Origin: Minisyncoccota bacterium
GTDB taxonomy: Bacteria > Patescibacteriota > Minisyncoccia > Phycocordibacterales > Phycocordibacteraceae
Reading direction: 5' to 3'
Length of the DNA stretch: 64,000 nt
Assembly: GCA_041666305.1 (NCBI GenBank)
Contig: JBAYHD010000004.1
Span: 3,946 to 67,945 of the forward strand
Below, piece by piece: positions 3,001-16,857 of the stretch. Each line of letters opens with the position of its first letter. The first letter of the stretch is position 1. Under the pieces are notes generated by a model. That model saw only the letters and a program-made list of their open reading frames with translations, was not told the origin of the DNA and searched no databases. The position numbers and the translations under genes are program-made.

Positions 3001-4526
3001 GTGGCGAGTGCGATTTTCTCGCCGGTAGTGAGCGCCGGCAATACCGCGGCGATGGCTGCGGCGACCGGCGGCGAATGAGTTATCGATGTGACCATCGGCG
3101 TCCGTGCGAACGTCTCAAACGCGAGTGCAGTTGTGCCGAGTGCACCGAGATACGCGTCGTTCACCGCGATGCGCGCATTCCTGATGAACGGACTCGCATT
3201 GTTCGCAACTTCGCGCGTGCTCTTCGCGCTTTCGTATGCAAGATTGCCGGCGCCCATCACCGATGCGAGGTACGCGCTTGAAATGCTGTCCGTCGCCGCT
3301 ACAAAATGAGTGGCGCCCGCATATTCCACATCGAAGACCGCTTGAGCGATGGCGGGAGCGATGTGCGCAGGAGCTTCAGTCGCACCGAGGAACACTGCGG
3401 TAGCGAGGGCAGGCACGCGCTCGGCGGCGAGTGCGAGCGCGTTGCCCGTGTTGCCCAGGAGCGCGACTGTGGCGCGAGCGGAGGCGGGTGCCGCGGAGGC
3501 GAGGCCGTAGGAAACCGCCACATCAGCGCCGATGAACGCGTGCGTTGCGTCAATAACCGCCGTGCCGAGCGCGAGATTTGTGTTCGCTATGATTTCCGGC
3601 GTCGCTTTGAGCGTGTCGCGTGTGGTCGCAGCAAGCGCAAGAACTTTTTCACCTGCTGATCCGATGAGCGAGTGGTACGCAGCAAATGCGGCACCGATAC
3701 CGGCGTACGCATTTTCGCCGAGCGCGACATACGCATTCACGAGCGCGCTCGCCGTGCGCGACGGCGAGGTGAGCGTCGCATACGTATCAAACGCAAATGT
3801 CCGCACGTCGTCGGCAGTAACGACCGAACCGTTGATCGCCGACAACTTGGCGGTCCGGTCGCCAAGTCCTGATGCGATGCGAACATTTTTATTTTCATCG
3901 AGCGCCATGCGGAGCGAAGAAAGATCCGGTTCCGCAAGAACGGTTGATGCAATGTTCGCTGTTGTGAATTCGTTTGACGTCGCAACGCGCGGAGAAATTT
4001 TCGCCGCTTCATTTTTCGCCGTATCGATGTGCGCGACGATGCGCGAAGGAATGTCGCCAAACGTCTCAGTGAATCCGAATGCAACCGTGCGTGTCATCTC
4101 TGCCGCACTCGCCGCGAATTGCGGGATCGCTGACGCGTGCGCCGCGAACGCACCTGATGCAACTACGAGAAGCGCTACCGAAAGCGCGAGCGCATGCGAG
4201 CGGATTGAATTTGTTACGAGGCTGAACGGTTTTGGCACATAAAGCGGCGCTGTCAACGTCTTCGTTGCACGATGGATCATCGAGCGGTGCGCACGATACT
4301 CCTCCGCGCGTGCGCTCGCGAGCGCACGCGCGCGAACGATCTTGTGATCGCCCTGCTTATCGAGGAAACGCTCGAGCGAATCTTTTTCGATAAGCCAGTT
4401 GTGTCCGATTCTTTTTCCGGTAATTTTTCCGGAGCGAATGAGGCGAGAAAGATAATCCGAAGTGTACCCAAAAAATTCACCTGCCTCTCTTGTCGTAATC
4501 AAATTTTCTTTAGGTGGAAGGTTCAT
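1..4526 (-). CDS. Giant cell-surface protein, partial (>1500 aa; C-terminus beyond left edge): N-terminal HTH_17 excisionase-type DNA-binding domain, one TM helix, then a long Gly/Thr/Ser/Ala-rich repetitive extracellular region
   Basis: ATG at 4526-4524. Hand translation of the minus strand is open for at least 900 nt: MNLPPKENLITTREAGEFFGYTSDYLSRLIRSGKITGKRIGHNWLIEKDSLERFLDKQ (HTH_17-like), then the hydrophobic stretch ALALSVALLVVASGAFAAHA. All minus-strand ORFs the track lists in 1-4526 share one alternative frame and none is in this frame, which fits one uninterrupted ORF without an in-window stop. The motif GNVGIGTTSP recurs, seen as ccgat(g/a)ccgacgttgcc on the plus strand near 405, 860, 1280, 1585, 1990 and 2285. 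Confidence 0.6.
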   Translation of the reverse strand, partial: MNLPPKENLITTREAGEFFGYTSDYLSRLIRSGKITGKRIGHNWLIEKDSLERFLDKQGDHKIVRARALASARAEEYRAHRSMIHRATKTLTAPLYVPKPFSLVTNSIRSHALALSVALLVVASGAFAAHASAIPQFAASAAEMTRTVAFGFTETFGDIPSRIVAHIDTAKNEAAKISPRVATSNEFTTANIASTVLAEPDLSSLRMALDENKNVRIASGLGDRTAKLSAINGSVVTADDVRTFAFDTYATLTSPSRTASALVNAYVALGENAYAGIGAAFAAYHSLIGSAGEKVLALAATTRDTLKATPEIIANTNLALGTAVIDATHAFIGADVAVSYGLASAAPASARATVALLGNTGNALALAAERVPALATAVFLGATEAPAHIAPAIAQAVFDVEYAGATHFVAATDSISSAYLASVMGAGNLAYESAKSTREVANNASPFIRNARIAVNDAYLGALGTTALAFETFARTPMVTSITHSPPVAAAIAAVLPALTTGEKIALATYETIHDFINDAGRALAFLFTPPTVYPNFAPQNIATNATTTRVANSFTTIIQGVSPDYLDQSLAALRLDVFSAIAANTSRTIITRFSDSRGLSFQNIPSISADAGTFGSLTAGDTTVNGAFNETGNAVITGNFTTTGNATIGGTLTAGFLSISGLSSGEAISASYFSATSTTATSTFAGPLAAFNHVESPYFIATSTTATSTFAGRLAIGTTTPWGDGFFTVGTTTPLLYISSNTGRIGIGTSTPASIFEIYGTDALRIPVGTDAQRPAMALIGQVRFNTDAHQFEGYNDTGVWQGIGGVINPALTTKITAGTDDYLRFFTSSTERLTIDSAGNIGIATSSPFANLSLAGLAGGTQNLFAISTSTAGFATTTALTINSNGDLSLLNGANLTVGGNLTVSGSTSFTSAITGAITSTGTSTAPAFAASTRGFAGAPVFTFSSDLITGMWSPLASTLAFSTGGAERVRIDAAGNVGIGTTSPSRLLDVSTSHTNTTLTTNSNAAIAITNTSNTANNFSDLGFWTRDNAGTTALGSKISGVFTSHGGGAISSDIAFLASNVGTIAEKMRITGAGNVGIGTTSPYSLLSISNSAITAANTPLFTIASTTGGTATTTLMTVLANGNVGIGTANPTALLHSVVTVNASPLIAERTGANAVQFKVQVDSNNLSLYQKALGASSGWVSGAVNNSGYQISNSTSFGANDFFTILNTSGNVGIGTTSPYSMLSISNSASTAANTPLFTIASTTDGTSTSTLMTVLASGNVGMGNAIPESALHIKGDNTYAINAAAPALLTLETTTAGDTGVGPSILFGGQTGKAISKYGFGLIGGFMENATAGDYSGYLSFQTDSAVGLISEKMRLSSAGNLGIGTTSPYAALSVVGSTGVVADHYTATSTSVKSSFAGGIQLTNSSELCFTDATCMATAGLTASTLTAQADAVITADSDLNGSGDIAFKTGATDRFHIINSTGNVGISNTSPTYRLSVYSTDSTTNLFQVATTTNTAVLV
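380..2320 (-). repeat. Intragenic tandem protein repeats (~300-450 nt period) inside the giant surface protein gene
   Basis: Plus-strand segments 700-815 and 1120-1235 are ~80% identical. Shadow ORFs 673..942 and 1072..1266 encode near-identical peptides (VPIPTFP...VEAIVKSGVFAAV). The GNVGIGTT-encoding motif repeats at least 6 times. Confidence 0.55.
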
Positions 4527-5157
4527 GTCGGATATCCGAATTAACTAAATAATAACTTATCATTTCGGCATTTCCTACAAAAAATGTGGGGATAATTATT
4601 TGCAAAAAAGTTACTGTCGCATCGCACTATATTCGCGCATCAAAAATGCATAAAAAATCCGAACATTTTAAGTCCGGAAAGCAGAAAAATTCGCCATAAA
4701 CTCATTCTGAATCAAAAAATTCTCTTTGTTCGCGTCCCAATGCTACTTTTTTCAGAAAAAATAGGCACACAGAGCCATTTTTGCGATCATATACATTATG
4801 TTAGGCAGATATGTGCGGATAGCCGAACAACATAGTGTTTAATTAACTATTCCGGTGCTCCAAACAGCACCTTATACTATCTATATAAAGGTATCCGCAC
4901 ATGTTCGCCTGCGTGTAGGCATTCAATATGCATTATTCACAGGTAGAACGTACACCGCACAGATACCAATGTTCAACACCTGGTGTTGAACATTGGTCAG
5001 TACGATCAACTAAATACCACTTTACGGTGTGTCTATACTCTACGAGCCGTTTACGAGCCCACAAAGCATCATTAAACCTTATAAAATTTATACATCACGA
5101 ACTTAACTTATTAATATGTCGTCTCGTGTATCCGAGACGAGAAACGCTGTATATAAA

Positions 5158-8859: not shown

Positions 8860-8864
8860 CTGAA

Positions 8865-8900
8865 ATCCAAAAACCTCCATATATGGAGGTTTTTGGATTG
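8865..8900. terminator. 36-nt perfect palindrome AATCCAAAAACCTCCATATATGGAGGTTTTTGGATT between convergent genes; bidirectional terminator-like hairpin (A-tract / stem / T-tract)
   Basis: Perfect inverted repeat with AAAAA on the 5' side and TTTTT on the 3' side. It sits between the 3' ends of the trpR-like gene (+) and secA (-). Confidence 0.6.
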
Positions 8901-11869: not shown

Positions 11870-11904
11870 GCAAAATAATTTTCGCGAAAATTATTTTGCT
11901 TTTT
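11870..11904. terminator. 30-nt perfect palindrome GCAAAATAATTTTCGCGAAAATTATTTTGC followed by TTTTT, overlapping the murB stop codon
   Basis: Perfect inverted repeat. It overlaps the last three murB codons and separates murB from the secA upstream region. Confidence 0.4.
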
Positions 11905-15168: not shown

Positions 15169-15196
15169 GCCCTAAAGCTCTTCCTTTTGACACCTC

Positions 15197-15223
15197 CCAT
15201 GTAGGACCTCCGAGGTCCTACAT
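15197..15223. repeat. REP-like palindromic hairpin, copy 1 (CATGTAGGACCTCCGAGGTCCTACATG)
   Basis: 13-bp perfect stem; 17 nt upstream of the RAYT start codon. Confidence 0.8.
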
Positions 15224-15239
15224 GGGTTATACTTGCTGA

Positions 15240-15914
15240 ATGGAGTTGTATCACGTGCTTAATCGAGGAGTTGATGGACGCAAACTATTTCTCGACTCGC
15301 AAGATTATGTGCGCTTTATACATAATTTGTTCGAATTCAATGATTCTGCTCCGTCAGTAGGATCTGCTCGCCGAGACATATGCGACACGAATGTAGGACC
15401 TCGGAGGTCCTACATTCGGAAACGACTGGTTGAGATCCATGGTTGGGTTCTCATGAAGGACCACTACCATTTAATCATCTCAGAACTTATTGAGGGCGGG
15501 TTGCTAAAATTCATGATGAAAGTAAATGTCGGCTACGCAAAATATTATAATGAACGATATACACGACACGGTCATCTCTTCCAAGGGAAGACGAAGAAAA
15601 TTCGCATCGAGCGTGCAGCGCATTTCTTATACATACTCCATTATGTGCACCTCAATCCTCTCGATTATTTGAGGGGAGCAGCCACATGGCGCGAGCGTGA
15701 TAAAAATACCATCAAAAACACACGCGAGGCATTGAAATATTTGGATGAATACCGTTGGAGCAGTTATCTCGATTATTGCAGCAAAAAGAATTTCCCTTCC
15801 ATCCTCACCAAGAGAATATTCGGAAATGTGTTTGGTAATTATCAGGAAGTGATCAAAGACTATTTGAAGAATGTTGAGGAATCGCCGATTGGTGACTCCA
15901 CCATTCTTGAATAG
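15240..15914 (+). mobile_element. IS200/IS605-family Y1 (HUH) transposase of the REP-associated tyrosine transposase (RAYT) type
   Basis: N-terminal YHVLNRGVDGRKLF; HUH motif HGWVLMKDHYHLII; Tyr-rich helix AKYYNERY. Flanked by REP palindromes, with a third copy in-frame inside the ORF. Confidence 0.75.
15391..15415. repeat. REP-like palindrome copy 2 (ATGTAGGACCTCGGAGGTCCTACAT), inside the RAYT coding sequence
   Basis: Exact 25-mer; it encodes NVGPRRSYI within the ORF. Confidence 0.8.
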
Positions 15915-15927
15915 CAGTGTGATATTG

Positions 15928-15952
15928 ATGTAGGACCTCGGAGGTCCTACAT
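15928..15952. repeat. REP-like palindrome copy 3, 14 nt downstream of the RAYT stop
   Basis: Exact 25-mer, identical to copy 2. Confidence 0.8.
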
Positions 15953-16026
15953 ATAGATACATACAAAACGCCCCGCGAAAAGCGGGGCATTTTGCGTTCA
16001 TATTTTTATTTCTCTAAGGCCTGGTT

Positions 16027-16857
16027 TTAAAACCGCCAGATGAAGAGTCCCCACATCTTCTGTTCTCTCTGTGCGAGGTCTTGAAGACGCGCCTGAGCAT
16101 CTTCCAATGCTTCTATTTGCGCCTTGAGGACCACCTGAATGTCTGCCGACACACTGGCTTCAACGAGAAGCTTGTTGAGGTCGGTGATGCGCTGTTGGTT
16201 TTGTGCGACTGCTTGCGAGATAACATTCGCCGCCGCACTATCGCCACCGAAGAAGAGTCGCGCAAGGAAACTGCGCGACTGTATCTTCGCTTCAGCCTTT
16301 GTCGTCGTTGCGACCGAATCATTCATCTCTTTCGCAATTTCCGATACTTTCGGACCGATGTCGCCGATGAGATCTTTGGAAGCGAGAAGCGCGTGCACTG
16401 CAAGGCGTACCTCGTTCGCATTTTTTACGATACCCCTATTCTGTTCTGTCGTGCTCGCCTCTTCATCCTCGAGTTCGAGTTTGCGATTCTCAATCTTCTG
16501 ATTCAGATCATCGAGCGAGAACGCGGTATCTTTATCGTCTTCGAGTTCGAACTCAAATTCGTCTTGATCATTTTGGTCATCGTTTATCGATTCATTATCA
16601 TCCCCGCTCTTCGAGCTGGTCGCTTGATTGTCGTTCCTGCGGTTCGAACTGGTCGCCTCATCGTCATCGTCATTGACTCGCGCGCTTCCGGTCACCGATG
16701 TGTCCACATCATCAGAGACGCGGACTTGCGTAACGGCGGTTATTTGTGTATCCGCACTTCCCTCGCCATCGTTGTTTTCGGCGGCCGCAATAGCCGGGAG
16801 TCCACTCATGGCGATCGCAAGTGCGAATGCCCCGCTCGTAAAGAGATATTTTTTCAT
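16027..16857 (-). CDS. Secreted acidic low-complexity protein with C-terminal coiled coil
   Basis: Signal peptide MKKYLFTSGAFALAIAMSGLPAIAAA; Asp/Glu/Ser/Asn-rich region; C-terminal heptad-like QAVAQNQQRITDLNKLLVEA...LEDAQARLQDLAQ. Confidence 0.5.
   Translation of the reverse strand: MKKYLFTSGAFALAIAMSGLPAIAAAENNDGEGSADTQITAVTQVRVSDDVDTSVTGSARVNDDDDEATSSNRRNDNQATSSKSGDDNESINDDQNDQDEFEFELEDDKDTAFSLDDLNQKIENRKLELEDEEASTTEQNRGIVKNANEVRLAVHALLASKDLIGDIGPKVSEIAKEMNDSVATTTKAEAKIQSRSFLARLFFGGDSAAANVISQAVAQNQQRITDLNKLLVEASVSADIQVVLKAQIEALEDAQARLQDLAQREQKMWGLFIWRF

What the first reader, a model, noticed from the sequence alone, without database searches (positions are those of the whole stretch)
15197..15952. 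RAYT-type Y1 transposase bracketed by REP hairpins, with a third REP copy in-frame inside its own ORF
The gene has the IS200 HUH signature (HYHLII) and a Tyr-rich helix. It is flanked by copies of one 25-nt palindrome, ATGTAGGACCTCNGAGGTCCTACAT. Copy 1 carries the central base inverted, which is the inverted orientation typical of REP/RAYT units. A third exact copy lies inside the coding sequence at 15391-15415 without breaking the frame. It encodes NVGPRRSYI, in a stretch that is longer than in canonical IS200 TnpA between the first beta-strand and the HUH motif. REP/RAYT systems are described mainly in Proteobacteria. An in-frame REP insertion into the transposase itself may be a self-targeting event or a domesticated variant.
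Basis: partly seen in the sequence, partly recalled or inferred. Interest (0 to 1): 0.65.

Follow-up and report, generated by a model that had tools for sequence, protein, structure and literature searches.

The report
Hairpin-flanked RAYT-like gene with internal hairpin
A small gene for a hairpin-cutting (HUH/tyrosine) DNA enzyme in an ultra-small CPR bacterium carries the same 25-base palindrome before, inside and after its coding sequence. This three-site layout is not a recent accident: it is conserved across a large, undescribed CPR branch of the REP/RAYT systems, and the three copies change sequence together.

Summary
ATGTAGGACCTCnGAGGTCCTACAT occurs exactly three times in the window: 15199-15223, 15391-15415 (in frame, NVGPRRSYI) and 15928-15952. 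It brackets and interrupts a 224-aa ORF (15240-15914) with an HUH motif (H75/H77), a Y-x-x-x-N-P tyrosine motif (Y135) and a predicted fold closest to IS608 TnpA and E. coli RAYT.

The internal copy is not a recent self-insertion. Of about 80 homologous CPR loci (54-80% aa identity), 67/81, 57/83 and 65/76 carry a palindrome at the upstream, internal and downstream sites. All six relatives sampled at 39-45% identity carry all three.

Within a locus the three cores are nearly identical. Between loci they differ by about 8 of 25 bases with compensated arm changes, even where the neighbouring genes are the same. The internal copy is read in two different frames and encodes 37 different peptides, so the DNA palindrome is conserved and the peptide is not.

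The same palindromes occur elsewhere at low copy, often in frame inside housekeeping genes (TrmD, DNA pol III subunits, transketolase).

Best reading: a REPtron-like RAYT/REP system. REPs in frame inside tnpA_REP genes and intragenic REPs have been published, so this is a new variant of a known kind. The function of the internal copy is unresolved.

The parts
15196..15226 (.). Upstream palindrome (core 15199-15223, centre C; 15-nt arms with site-specific CCC..GGG extension). It lies 14-44 nt before the ATG, over the place where a -35 box and spacer would lie.
   Evidence: A palindrome is present at this site in 67 of 81 homologous loci.
15229..15234 (+). TATACT, a -10-like hexamer 5 nt before the ATG. 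It implies a leaderless or near-leaderless transcript (inferred).
   Evidence: TATA[CA]T is conserved at -12..-7 (T58 A58 T42 A49 C33/A25 T61 of 81 loci). The strict sigma-70 scan found no full promoter.
15240..15914 (+). ORF of 224 aa: RAYT-like HUH/Y1 protein (the source names it 'transposase', Candidatus Paceibacterota).
   Evidence: Y1_Tnp 23.2 bits, cutoff 23; REP_Tyr_transpos 32.5 bits, cutoff 80.
15388..15418 (.). Internal palindrome (core 15391-15415, centre G; 15-nt arms with CGA..TCG extension). The 27 nt 15390-15416 are read in frame as NVGPRRSYI (residues 51-59) in the disordered helix1-strand2 loop.
   Evidence: A palindrome is present at this site in 57 of 83 loci and 6 of 6 distant relatives.
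15462..15470 (+). HUH motif codons (H75-Y76-H77).
   Evidence: sequence. H75 and H77 are invariant in 94 homologs. H77 is invariant and H75 is kept in at least 90% of relatives at 31-58% identity.
15642..15659 (+). Y135-V-H-L-N-P: the Y---NP motif that marks class 2 (RAYT/TnpA_REP) proteins. Y135 is the presumed catalytic tyrosine.
   Evidence: Y135 invariant. Motif definition from PMC6006769, Table 1.
15928..15952 (.). Downstream palindrome (centre G, 12-nt arms), 14 nt after the stop codon.
   Evidence: A palindrome is present at this site in 65 of 76 loci.
15970..15988 (.). Separate GC-rich hairpin with T-runs on both strands. Probably the actual, bidirectional terminator shared with the convergent gene 16027..16857.

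Best explanation
The locus is a REPtron-like unit. A single-copy, mostly vertically inherited gene for a RAYT-type HUH/tyrosine single-strand DNA nuclease-ligase sits together with three copies of its cognate hairpin-forming palindrome (a 'double-foot' REP, GTAGG...CCTAC). One copy lies over the promoter region, one is in frame inside the ORF, and one lies just past the stop.

Shown:
- The protein has the catalytic motifs and the fold.
- The three-site layout is ancestral to a wide CPR family.
- The three copies evolve in concert while the peptide encoded by the internal copy is free to change.
- The same palindromes occur elsewhere as single copies and as inverted doublets, often in frame in housekeeping genes.

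Inferred:
- The protein binds and cuts these hairpins on single-stranded DNA, as E. coli TnpA_REP and IS608 TnpA do.
- Its cut-and-rejoin activity, or template switching between nearby palindromes, copies one palindrome over another in either orientation. That would keep the copies identical and scramble loop orientation.
- The internal copy began as an in-frame 27-nt insertion into a disordered surface loop.
- The upstream copy, abutting a conserved -10 box, and perhaps the internal copy, let the protein throttle its own expression.
For: Protein:
- HUH and Y135-x-x-x-N-P are invariant in 94 homologs and kept in relatives at 31-58% identity.
- The Pfam Y1_Tnp score is at the gathering threshold.
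- The AlphaFold model (pLDDT 68) has as top Foldseek hits IS608 TnpA, E. coli RAYT bound to a REP hairpin (4er8) and ISDra2 TnpA, all at probability 1.0.

Architecture:
- Palindromes occur at the three fixed sites in 67/81, 57/83 and 65/76 loci, and at all three sites in 6/6 relatives at 39-45% identity with quite different cores.

Concerted change:
- The up-in core distance is 0 in 34/49 loci and at most 1 in 45/49, against a mean of 8.1 of 25 between loci.
- 12 of 14 stem pairs show double (compensated) changes, 136 such cells, and 0/500 shuffles reach this.
- 13 loci share the same arm mismatch at two or three sites, in the same or inverted orientation, which points to copying rather than independent selection.
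- Loci with the same neighbouring genes carry different cores.

DNA is conserved, not the peptide:
- The internal copy is read in two frames (27 and 30 loci) and gives 37 peptides in 57 loci.

Vertical inheritance:
- 24 and 22 loci share flanking genes.

Mobility and dispersal:
- The exact 25-mer occurs in 12 contigs of other CPR genomes.
- It lies in frame in DNA pol III delta', TrmD, pol III gamma/tau, ApbE and a ComF-like gene.
- TrmD orthologs at about 85% identity lack exactly the 9 codons.
- Inverted doublets sit at one transketolase site.
- 16/28 nearby solos match the resident gene's core at 2 or fewer differences.

Promoter geometry.
Against: - No biochemical activity is shown for any member of this family.
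- The NCBIfam RAYT equivalog score is far below its cutoff (32.5 against 80).
- Copy number is low. There is no further copy in this 64-kb window and only 1-4 exact copies per genome among the hits, so 'repetitive' is a weak word here.
- Some homologs keep an intact ORF while their palindromes have decayed (for example L021, L040, L056, L066, L069), so the protein may have a role that does not need them.
- Several clades lost the internal copy but kept the flanking ones (for example L018, L049, L053, L087), so the internal copy is dispensable.
- Palindromic covariation is also what a symmetric dimer binding double-stranded DNA would produce. It does not by itself prove a hairpin.
- The strict promoter scan found nothing.
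- Some solos do not match the core of the resident gene (L012, L032).
Confidence: 0.68

Rival explanations
1. The internal copy is a recent self-insertion of a REP into the transposase gene of this genome.
For: The three copies in the window are identical apart from the central base. This could look recent.
Against: The palindrome sits at the same codon position in 57/83 homologous loci at 54-80% identity, and in 6/6 relatives at 39-45% identity. The identity of the copies reflects concerted evolution, which is seen in every lineage.
Confidence: 0.02
2. It is an autonomous IS200/IS605-type insertion sequence. The outer palindromes are its left and right end hairpins, and the 757-bp block 15196-15952 transposes as a unit.
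For: DNA similarity between the window and loci with other neighbours runs exactly from 15196 to 15952. The block is found in at least three genomic contexts. The fold matches IS608 TnpA. Size and layout resemble IS200.
Against: The tyrosine motif is Y---NP (RAYT class), not the Y---Q of IS200. There is one copy per contig, in the middle of long contigs (84 kb, 97 kb, 585 kb, 693 kb). Synteny is conserved over 24 and 22 loci. No paralog was found in 550 kb of fetched loci. The ends are identical perfect palindromes rather than distinct imperfect LE/RE hairpins. There is no tnpB. The palindromes also occur alone in other genes.
Confidence: 0.08
3. The palindromes are duplex operator sites for a symmetric dimer (this protein's C-terminal domain or another regulator). 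The gene is a domesticated regulator, not a DNA-cutting enzyme.
For: Perfect dyad symmetry with a conserved outer ATG/CAT and an invariant inner G12/C24 and T16/A20. The upstream copy lies next to a conserved -10 box. Half-site covariation fits a dimer whose specificity drifts.
Against: HUH and the tyrosine are invariant over thousands of homologs, which argues for retained catalysis. Every stem position covaries, including site-specific outer extensions, as expected for base pairing rather than protein contacts. The same palindromes lie in frame inside unrelated housekeeping genes, which are unlikely operator positions. Solved relatives bind hairpins.
Confidence: 0.1
4. The hairpins act at the RNA level (mRNA stability, translation pausing, termination) and are conserved for that reason.
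For: The internal and downstream copies are transcribed. In an RNA fold of the first 241 nt the internal hairpin forms. The terminator scan flags the upstream copy.
Against: If the -10 box is real, the upstream copy lies before the transcript start. G-U intermediates are rare in the core stem and A-C, T-T or A-A mismatches occur instead. Orientation flips, which turn G-U into A-C in the RNA, are tolerated. No T-run follows the downstream copy, and a separate terminator follows it. There is no Rfam family.
Confidence: 0.05
5. The palindromes are independent selfish mini-elements moved by some other enzyme, and the Y1 gene is merely a favoured landing site.
For: Palindromes of other types occur with no Y1 gene nearby (window 4969-4993; L038, L040, L082). 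Some solos do not match the resident gene's core.
Against: Three fixed sites are occupied over a range of 40-100% protein identity. 16/28 nearby solos match the resident core. This enzyme family is the one known to recognise such hairpins (PMC3479197 listed).
Confidence: 0.05

Closest known systems
REPtrons: RAYT / TnpA_REP genes flanked by REPs (E. coli YafM, Pseudomonas, Stenotrophomonas; Nunvar 2010, Ton-Hoang 2012 PMC3333891, Messing 2012 PMC3479197, Bertels & Rainey 2011 PMC3116915)
   Same: HUH plus Y---NP protein. Single copy and mostly vertical inheritance. The gene is flanked by its own hairpin-forming palindrome, which in the window type contains GTAG. The palindromes also occur elsewhere, singly and as inverted doublets (REPIN-like). 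Each protein lineage has its own palindrome.
   Different: CPR (Paceibacteria and relatives) instead of Proteobacteria. Copy number is very low rather than tens to hundreds. The palindromes are short and perfect (25-31 nt) with a 1-3-nt loop and are symmetric ('double foot'). A third, in-frame copy sits at a fixed site. The NCBIfam RAYT equivalog cutoff is not reached.
TnpA_Y1 subclass 2.4 (= Bertels RAYT Group 4; Cyanobacteria, Bacteroidetes): 'double foot' REPs and REPs inserted in frame within tnpA_REP (Quentin et al. 2018, PMC6006769)
   Same: REPs with 5' GT[AG]G and 3' C[TC]AC. REP copies inside the tnpA_REP ORF that keep the reading frame and lie in a peripheral loop.
   Different: Motifs differ: subclass 2.4 has NH[IFV]H, WQ and YIxNNP, whereas this protein has DHYH, FQ and YVHLNP. 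In 2.4 the insertions lie between HuH and Y and vary in length and sequence. Here there is one fixed site N-terminal to HuH, conserved down to about 40% identity and kept identical to the flanking copies.
TnpA_Y1 subclass 2.1 (= Bertels RAYT Group 1; 'TIRYT' of Di Nocera 2013)
   Same: Motif-level match to Table 1 of PMC6006769: NH[YF]H-type HuH, FQ, Y[IV]HLNP, an 'SS' motif in the C-terminal tail (RWSSY here), and a median length of about 238 aa.
   Different: That subclass was reported to have no REPs (terminal inverted repeats at most) and often an HTH tail. Here clear REP-like palindromes flank and interrupt the gene, and no HTH domain was detected. Membership was not tested with the authors' profiles or a tree.
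IS200/IS605 insertion sequences (IS608, ISDra2 TnpA)
   Same: The same fold (top Foldseek hits). Hairpins near both ends of a unit of about 0.7 kb. IS200 also uses a 5' hairpin to control expression (from memory).
   Different: IS200 has Y---Q rather than Y---NP, is multi-copy, and has distinct LE and RE hairpins. It shows no synteny conservation and no internal in-frame hairpin.
Intragenic REPs and Rickettsia palindromic elements (Ogata 2000; Di Nocera 2013, PMC3733652)
   Same: Short palindromic repeats inserted in frame in functional genes, notably replication and repair genes, presumably in loops.
   Different: Those papers do not describe a copy fixed inside the cognate enzyme's own gene, nor turnover of the sequence at a fixed site. 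RPEs are longer (about 100-150 bp).

Membership tests
HUH / Y1 transposase superfamily (Pfam PF01797 Y1_Tnp) | HUH metal-binding motif on a beta strand | tested here: met
   H75-Y-H77 lies on strand 75-82 of the model. H75 and H77 are invariant in 94 homologs.
HUH / Y1 transposase superfamily (Pfam PF01797 Y1_Tnp) | Single catalytic tyrosine on a C-terminal helix | tested here: met
   Y135 lies in helix 126-137 and is invariant down to 31% identity. Catalysis itself is not testable here.
HUH / Y1 transposase superfamily (Pfam PF01797 Y1_Tnp) | Profile score at or above Pfam gathering threshold | tested here: met
   23.2 bits against a cutoff of 23, so marginal. Many homologs carry a precomputed PF01797 hit.
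HUH / Y1 transposase superfamily (Pfam PF01797 Y1_Tnp) | Fold like IS608 TnpA / RAYT | tested here: met
   Foldseek top 22 PDB hits are IS608, E. coli RAYT (4er8) and ISDra2 transposases, probability 1.0, TM (target) 0.47-0.64. The model has only moderate confidence (pLDDT 68).
RAYT / TnpA_REP (class 2 of Quentin et al. 2018) | Y---NP tyrosine motif | tested here: met
   Y135-V-H-L-N139-P140. N139 is invariant and P140 is kept in at least 90%. Definition.
RAYT / TnpA_REP (class 2 of Quentin et al. 2018) | Gene flanked by copies of a hairpin-forming REP | tested here: met
RAYT / TnpA_REP (class 2 of Quentin et al. 2018) | The same REP repeated elsewhere in the genome | tested here: inconclusive
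   There are none elsewhere in the 64-kb window and the rest of this genome is not available. In other CPR genomes there are 1-4 exact copies and nearby solos matching the resident core.
RAYT / TnpA_REP (class 2 of Quentin et al. 2018) | Low copy number and vertical inheritance of the gene | tested here: met
   One copy per contig and no paralog in 550 kb of loci. Shared neighbours in 24 and 22 loci.
RAYT / TnpA_REP (class 2 of Quentin et al. 2018) | NCBIfam NF047646 REP_Tyr_transpos equivalog cutoff | tested here: not met
   32.5 bits against a cutoff of 80. The protein is not an equivalog of the proteobacterial RAYT.
RAYT / TnpA_REP (class 2 of Quentin et al. 2018) | Binding and cleavage of the REP hairpin on single-stranded DNA | not testable with these tools
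   Needs biochemistry.
TnpA_Y1 subclass 2.4 (REPs in frame inside tnpA_REP) | Motifs NH[IFV]H, WQ, YIxNNP, with insertions between HuH and Y | tested here: not met
   This protein has DHYH, FQ and YVHLNP, and the insertion lies N-terminal to HuH.
TnpA_Y1 subclass 2.1 (RAYT Group 1) | Motifs NH[YF]H / FQ / Y[IV]HLNP / SS tail, about 238 aa | tested here: met
   Motif comparison only. No profile or tree test was possible.
TnpA_Y1 subclass 2.1 (RAYT Group 1) | No REPs near the gene (as published) | tested here: not met
   Three REP-like palindromes lie at the gene.
IS200/IS605 insertion sequence | Y---Q motif, several near-identical copies per genome, distinct LE/RE hairpins, often tnpB | tested here: not met
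   The motif is Y---NP. The gene is single-copy in long contigs. The end palindromes are identical. No tnpB is among the called neighbours.

The most novel reading that the evidence does not exclude
The internal hairpin is not a tolerated passenger but a selected cis-element of a self-contained three-hairpin module. The enzyme would read its own gene (promoter, coding region and 3' end) through its cognate hairpins to control or rewrite itself. The same enzyme would overwrite palindromes at fixed sites genome-wide, including inside essential genes such as transketolase and TrmD. That would amount to enzyme-driven, sequence-specific editing of short coding segments in minimal CPR genomes.
Probability: 0.3. 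Interest if true: 0.8.

Novelty: new variant of a known kind. Interest (0 to 1): 0.6.

Why it matters
REP/RAYT systems are among the most common repeat systems in bacteria, yet what RAYTs do, and how REPs stay uniform, is still unsettled. This CPR family offers three things.

- It supplies dozens of natural protein-hairpin pairs with very different hairpin sequences on one conserved scaffold. That is a ready data set for working out how these enzymes recognise hairpins.
- It shows fixed sites whose sequence is replaced in concert, including shared imperfections and flipped orientation. This makes the copying or 'rewriting' step directly testable.
- It shows that proteins resembling the supposedly REP-less subclass 2.1 can have REPs, and it extends such systems to ultra-small bacteria with tiny genomes, where in-frame palindromes sit inside essential genes.

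A practical point: these genes are annotated simply as 'transposase', and the palindrome-encoded peptides inflate apparent protein divergence in CPR housekeeping genes.

Tried and rejected
- **PDB sequence search:** it returned only a spurious repeat-protein hit (8h2i), so it was ignored. Fold search was used instead.
- **Rfam, whole window:** nothing at gathering thresholds.
- **Viral contigs:** no exact 25-mer.
- **Strict sigma-70 scan:** no promoter found. The conserved TATAMT emerged only from aligning 81 upstream regions.
- **Second Y1 gene:** none in the window or the fetched loci.
- **Window's neighbours at other loci:** only two short contigs (L025, L030) share the Wzy/TPR gene. The neighbours of the two large synteny groups are absent from the window.
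- **Target-site duplications around solo copies:** no consistent duplication. One 7-nt direct repeat at the TrmD site lies in a lysine-rich stretch and is not convincing.
- **Assembly or library artefact:** rejected. The same sequence is present in independent assemblies, and the architecture recurs in JGI, ENA, NCBI and Logan data.
- **Conservation for the peptide's sake:** rejected. The internal copy is read in two frames and gives 37 peptides.
Full report
**1. What is in the window**

The 25-nt palindrome ATGTAGGACCTCnGAGGTCCTACAT occurs exactly three times: 15199-15223 (centre C), 15391-15415 (centre G) and 15928-15952 (centre G). No further match appears even with three mismatches, and none is expected by chance.

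The three copies lie 14-44 nt upstream of, inside, and 14 nt downstream of the ORF 15240..15914 (+, 224 aa). Copies 1 and 2 extend to 15-nt arms through different outer bases, CCC..GGG and CGA..TCG. As single-stranded DNA all three fold into stable hairpins at -15.9, -15.4 and -10.4 kcal/mol.

The internal copy is read as AAT GTA GGA CCT CGG AGG TCC TAC ATT, which gives NVGPRRSYI (residues 51-59). Two independent assemblies carry the gene and all three palindromes. The source names the protein 'transposase' of a Candidatus Paceibacterota bacterium.

**2. The protein**

- Pfam Y1_Tnp is hit at threshold (23.2 against 23). The NCBIfam RAYT equivalog is hit far below its cutoff (32.5 against 80).
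- H75, H77 and Y135 (in HYVHLNP) are invariant in 94 homologs. They are kept in relatives down to 31% identity.
- The AlphaFold model (pLDDT 68) has the order strand-helix-[long loop]-strand-strand(HUH)-helix-strand-helix(Y). Residues 41-59, which include the palindrome-encoded peptide, are below pLDDT 50.
- The best PDB fold matches are IS608 TnpA, the E. coli RAYT bound to a REP hairpin (4er8) and ISDra2 TnpA.
- By the motif table of Quentin et al. 2018, Y---NP places it in class 2 (RAYT/TnpA_REP), not IS200 (Y---Q). DHYH, FQ, YVHLNP and RWSSY resemble their subclass 2.1, which was reported to lack REPs. This is a motif-level comparison only.

**3. The three-palindrome layout is ancestral**

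The protein search found 3166 homologs at E of 0.001 or less, and the listed homologs that carry a source name are all CPR. A representative search found 2320 clusters at E of 1e-10 or less.

I analysed about 80 loci from 80 metagenome contigs and two of the genome contigs that hold the 25-mer (54-80% identity). A palindrome (2 or fewer mismatches) was present at:
- the upstream site in 67 of 81 loci;
- the internal site in 57 of 83;
- the downstream site in 65 of 76.

About half of those at each site are perfect. Six relatives at 39-45% identity, fetched separately, all have the same three sites with entirely different cores, for example AATCTTACGAAGTTgAACTTCGTAAGATT. The internal copy is therefore an old, conserved feature of a very wide family and not a self-insertion in this genome.

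**4. The copies change together, and the DNA is what is conserved**

- Within a locus the cores are almost always the same: the up-in distance is 0 in 34 of 49 loci and at most 1 in 45 of 49. Internal cores of different loci differ at a mean of 8.1 of 25 positions.
- On an ungapped alignment of 50 distinct internal sites, 12 of 14 stem pairs show changes on both sides and 136 cells are compensated. No shuffle of 500 reaches this, and all slid registers are far lower.
- In 13 loci the same arm mismatch is shared by two or three sites, in the same or the inverted orientation. This indicates copying between sites rather than independent selection for pairing.
- Loop orientation (c/g, or acg/cgt) varies freely.
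- The internal palindrome is read in two different frames (27 and 30 loci) and encodes 37 different peptides in 57 loci.
- The palindromes extend at least 3 nt beyond the shared core in 31/67, 20/57 and 15/65 sites, where about 1 is expected. The extensions are site-specific bases. I cannot explain this. Outward growth of palindromes by template switching is one possibility.

**5. Inheritance**

The gene is single-copy in long contigs, with no paralog in 550 kb of fetched DNA. Twenty-four loci share one set of neighbours and 22 share another. Within each set many different cores occur, so the cores are replaced in place.

The window's context (Wzy/TPR gene upstream) is shared only with two short contigs, L025 and L030, which carry other cores. 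DNA similarity to loci in other contexts runs exactly from 15196 to 15952, so the block has been relocated occasionally.

**6. The palindromes elsewhere**

The exact 25-mer occurs in 12 contigs of other CPR genomes, with 1-4 exact copies per genome, and 9 of those contigs have no homolog within 8 kb.
- Five different genes, on six contigs, carry it in frame. It is always read as xVGP(P/R)RSY(I/M). The genes have Pfam hits: DNA pol III delta', TrmD, pol III gamma/tau, ApbE and a ComF-like phosphoribosyltransferase.
- TrmD orthologs at about 85% identity lack exactly those 9 codons.
- In the fetched loci, inverted doublets joined by C(A/T)G sit in frame at one orthologous site of the transketolase gene in five loci, each with a different core.
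- 16 of 28 nearby solos match the resident gene's core at 2 or fewer differences.

In this window there is no further copy. The only other element of the same build is ATGTTCAACACCtGGTGTTGAACAT at 4969-4993, of another type and intergenic.

**7. Likely working**

*Shown:* catalytic motifs and fold; the three fixed sites; concerted change; low-copy dispersal, including in-frame insertions.

*Inferred from the solved relatives:* the protein binds and cuts these hairpins on single-stranded DNA. Its cut-and-rejoin chemistry, or template switching between palindromes 190 and 540 bp apart, copies one palindrome over another in either orientation.

A conserved TATA[CA]T lies at -12..-7, directly after the upstream palindrome. 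This suggests a leaderless transcript and places that palindrome over the -35 and spacer region, a natural spot for self-repression.

Whether the internal copy is selected or merely tolerated in a disordered loop is open.
- For tolerance: some clades lost the internal copy while keeping the flanking ones, and fixed-site persistence with turnover is also seen in transketolase.
- For a role: its presence down to about 40% identity.

**8. What is known**

Three published strands are relevant.
- REPtrons are RAYT genes with flanking REPs.
- Intragenic in-frame REPs were described by Di Nocera 2013.
- 'Double foot' REPs, and REPs inserted in frame within tnpA_REP of subclass 2.4, were described by Quentin 2018.

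The text searches found no paper on REP/RAYT systems in CPR. The new points are:
- the phylum;
- a subclass-2.1-like protein that has REPs;
- one fixed internal site N-terminal to HuH, conserved across a very wide family;
- direct evidence for concerted replacement at fixed sites.

**9. Caveats**

- The loci come from metagenomes. Some are duplicates of one another (for example L021/L022, L050/L051, L079/L080).
- Taxon labels of metagenome-assembled genomes are approximate.
- Dyad covariation cannot by itself separate a hairpin from a symmetric duplex site.
- The shuffle control ignores phylogeny.
- No activity has been measured for any member.
- The genome-wide copy number in this organism is unknown.

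Noticed in passing
window 4965-4997 (core 4969-4993): A fourth perfect palindrome of the same build (ATG-N9-n-N9-CAT, 16-nt arms) but another type: ACCAATGTTCAACACCtGGTGTTGAACATTGGT. It lies in an AT-rich, ORF-poor stretch of about 600 nt (about 4540-5157) with no Y1 gene nearby. Similar 'AACACC/GGTGTT' palindromes occur in L038 (inside an Lnt-like ORF), L040 and L082.
   Followed up: partly
L001 1479-1503; L002 212-236 and L008 6942-6966; L003 4443-4467; L005 6495-6519; L011 7143-7167: The exact window 25-mer sits in frame, always read as xVGP(P/R)RSY(I/M), inside Pfam-confirmed housekeeping genes of other CPR genomes: DNA pol III delta', TrmD, pol III gamma/tau, ApbE and a ComF-like PRTase. 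TrmD orthologs at about 85% identity lack exactly these 9 codons.
   Followed up: yes
L012 3799-3841; L032 4364-4404; L038 9427-9469; L044 483-533; L047 8232-8284; L043 2022-2046: Inverted doublets of the palindrome (two cores joined by C[AT]G, REPIN-like) lie in frame at one orthologous site of the transketolase N-domain gene, between GMAxA(L/F)(R/K) and RVYCLMSDG. The core type differs in each genome. L043 has a single copy there.
   Followed up: partly
all three sites across loci (e.g. window 15196-15198/15224-15226 and 15388-15390/15416-15418): The palindromes extend at least 3 nt beyond the shared 25-nt core far more often than chance (31/67, 20/57, 15/65 against about 1 expected). The extra bases are specific to the site (CCC..GGG upstream, CGA..TCG internal), not to the core type. 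Unexplained.
   Followed up: partly
L046 387-439; L077 2404-2428; L061 6514-6542; L091 7109-7133: Further in-frame palindromes lie in an MTS-type methyltransferase (doublet), a PIF1-like helicase and two large Ig-like surface-protein ORFs. The L091 ORF also has an intein-splicing-domain hit.
   Followed up: partly
window 1-64000: No Rfam family reaches its gathering score anywhere in the 64 kb, so the stretch holds no detected tRNA, rRNA or riboswitch.
   Followed up: no
window 8864-8899; 11870-11899; 4305-4332: Other perfect palindromes are unrelated to the family. AATCCAAAAACCTCCATATGGAGGTTTTTGGATT looks like a bidirectional intrinsic terminator. GCAAAATAATTTTCGCGAAAATTATTTTGC and a GC-rich CGCGCGTGCGCTCGCGAGCGCACGCGCG were not examined.
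   Followed up: no
L044 49-1878 (- strand): One open frame of 610 codons has both Ribul_P_3_epim and Transketolase_N hits. It is either a fusion or two adjacent genes without an intervening stop in that frame.
   Followed up: no
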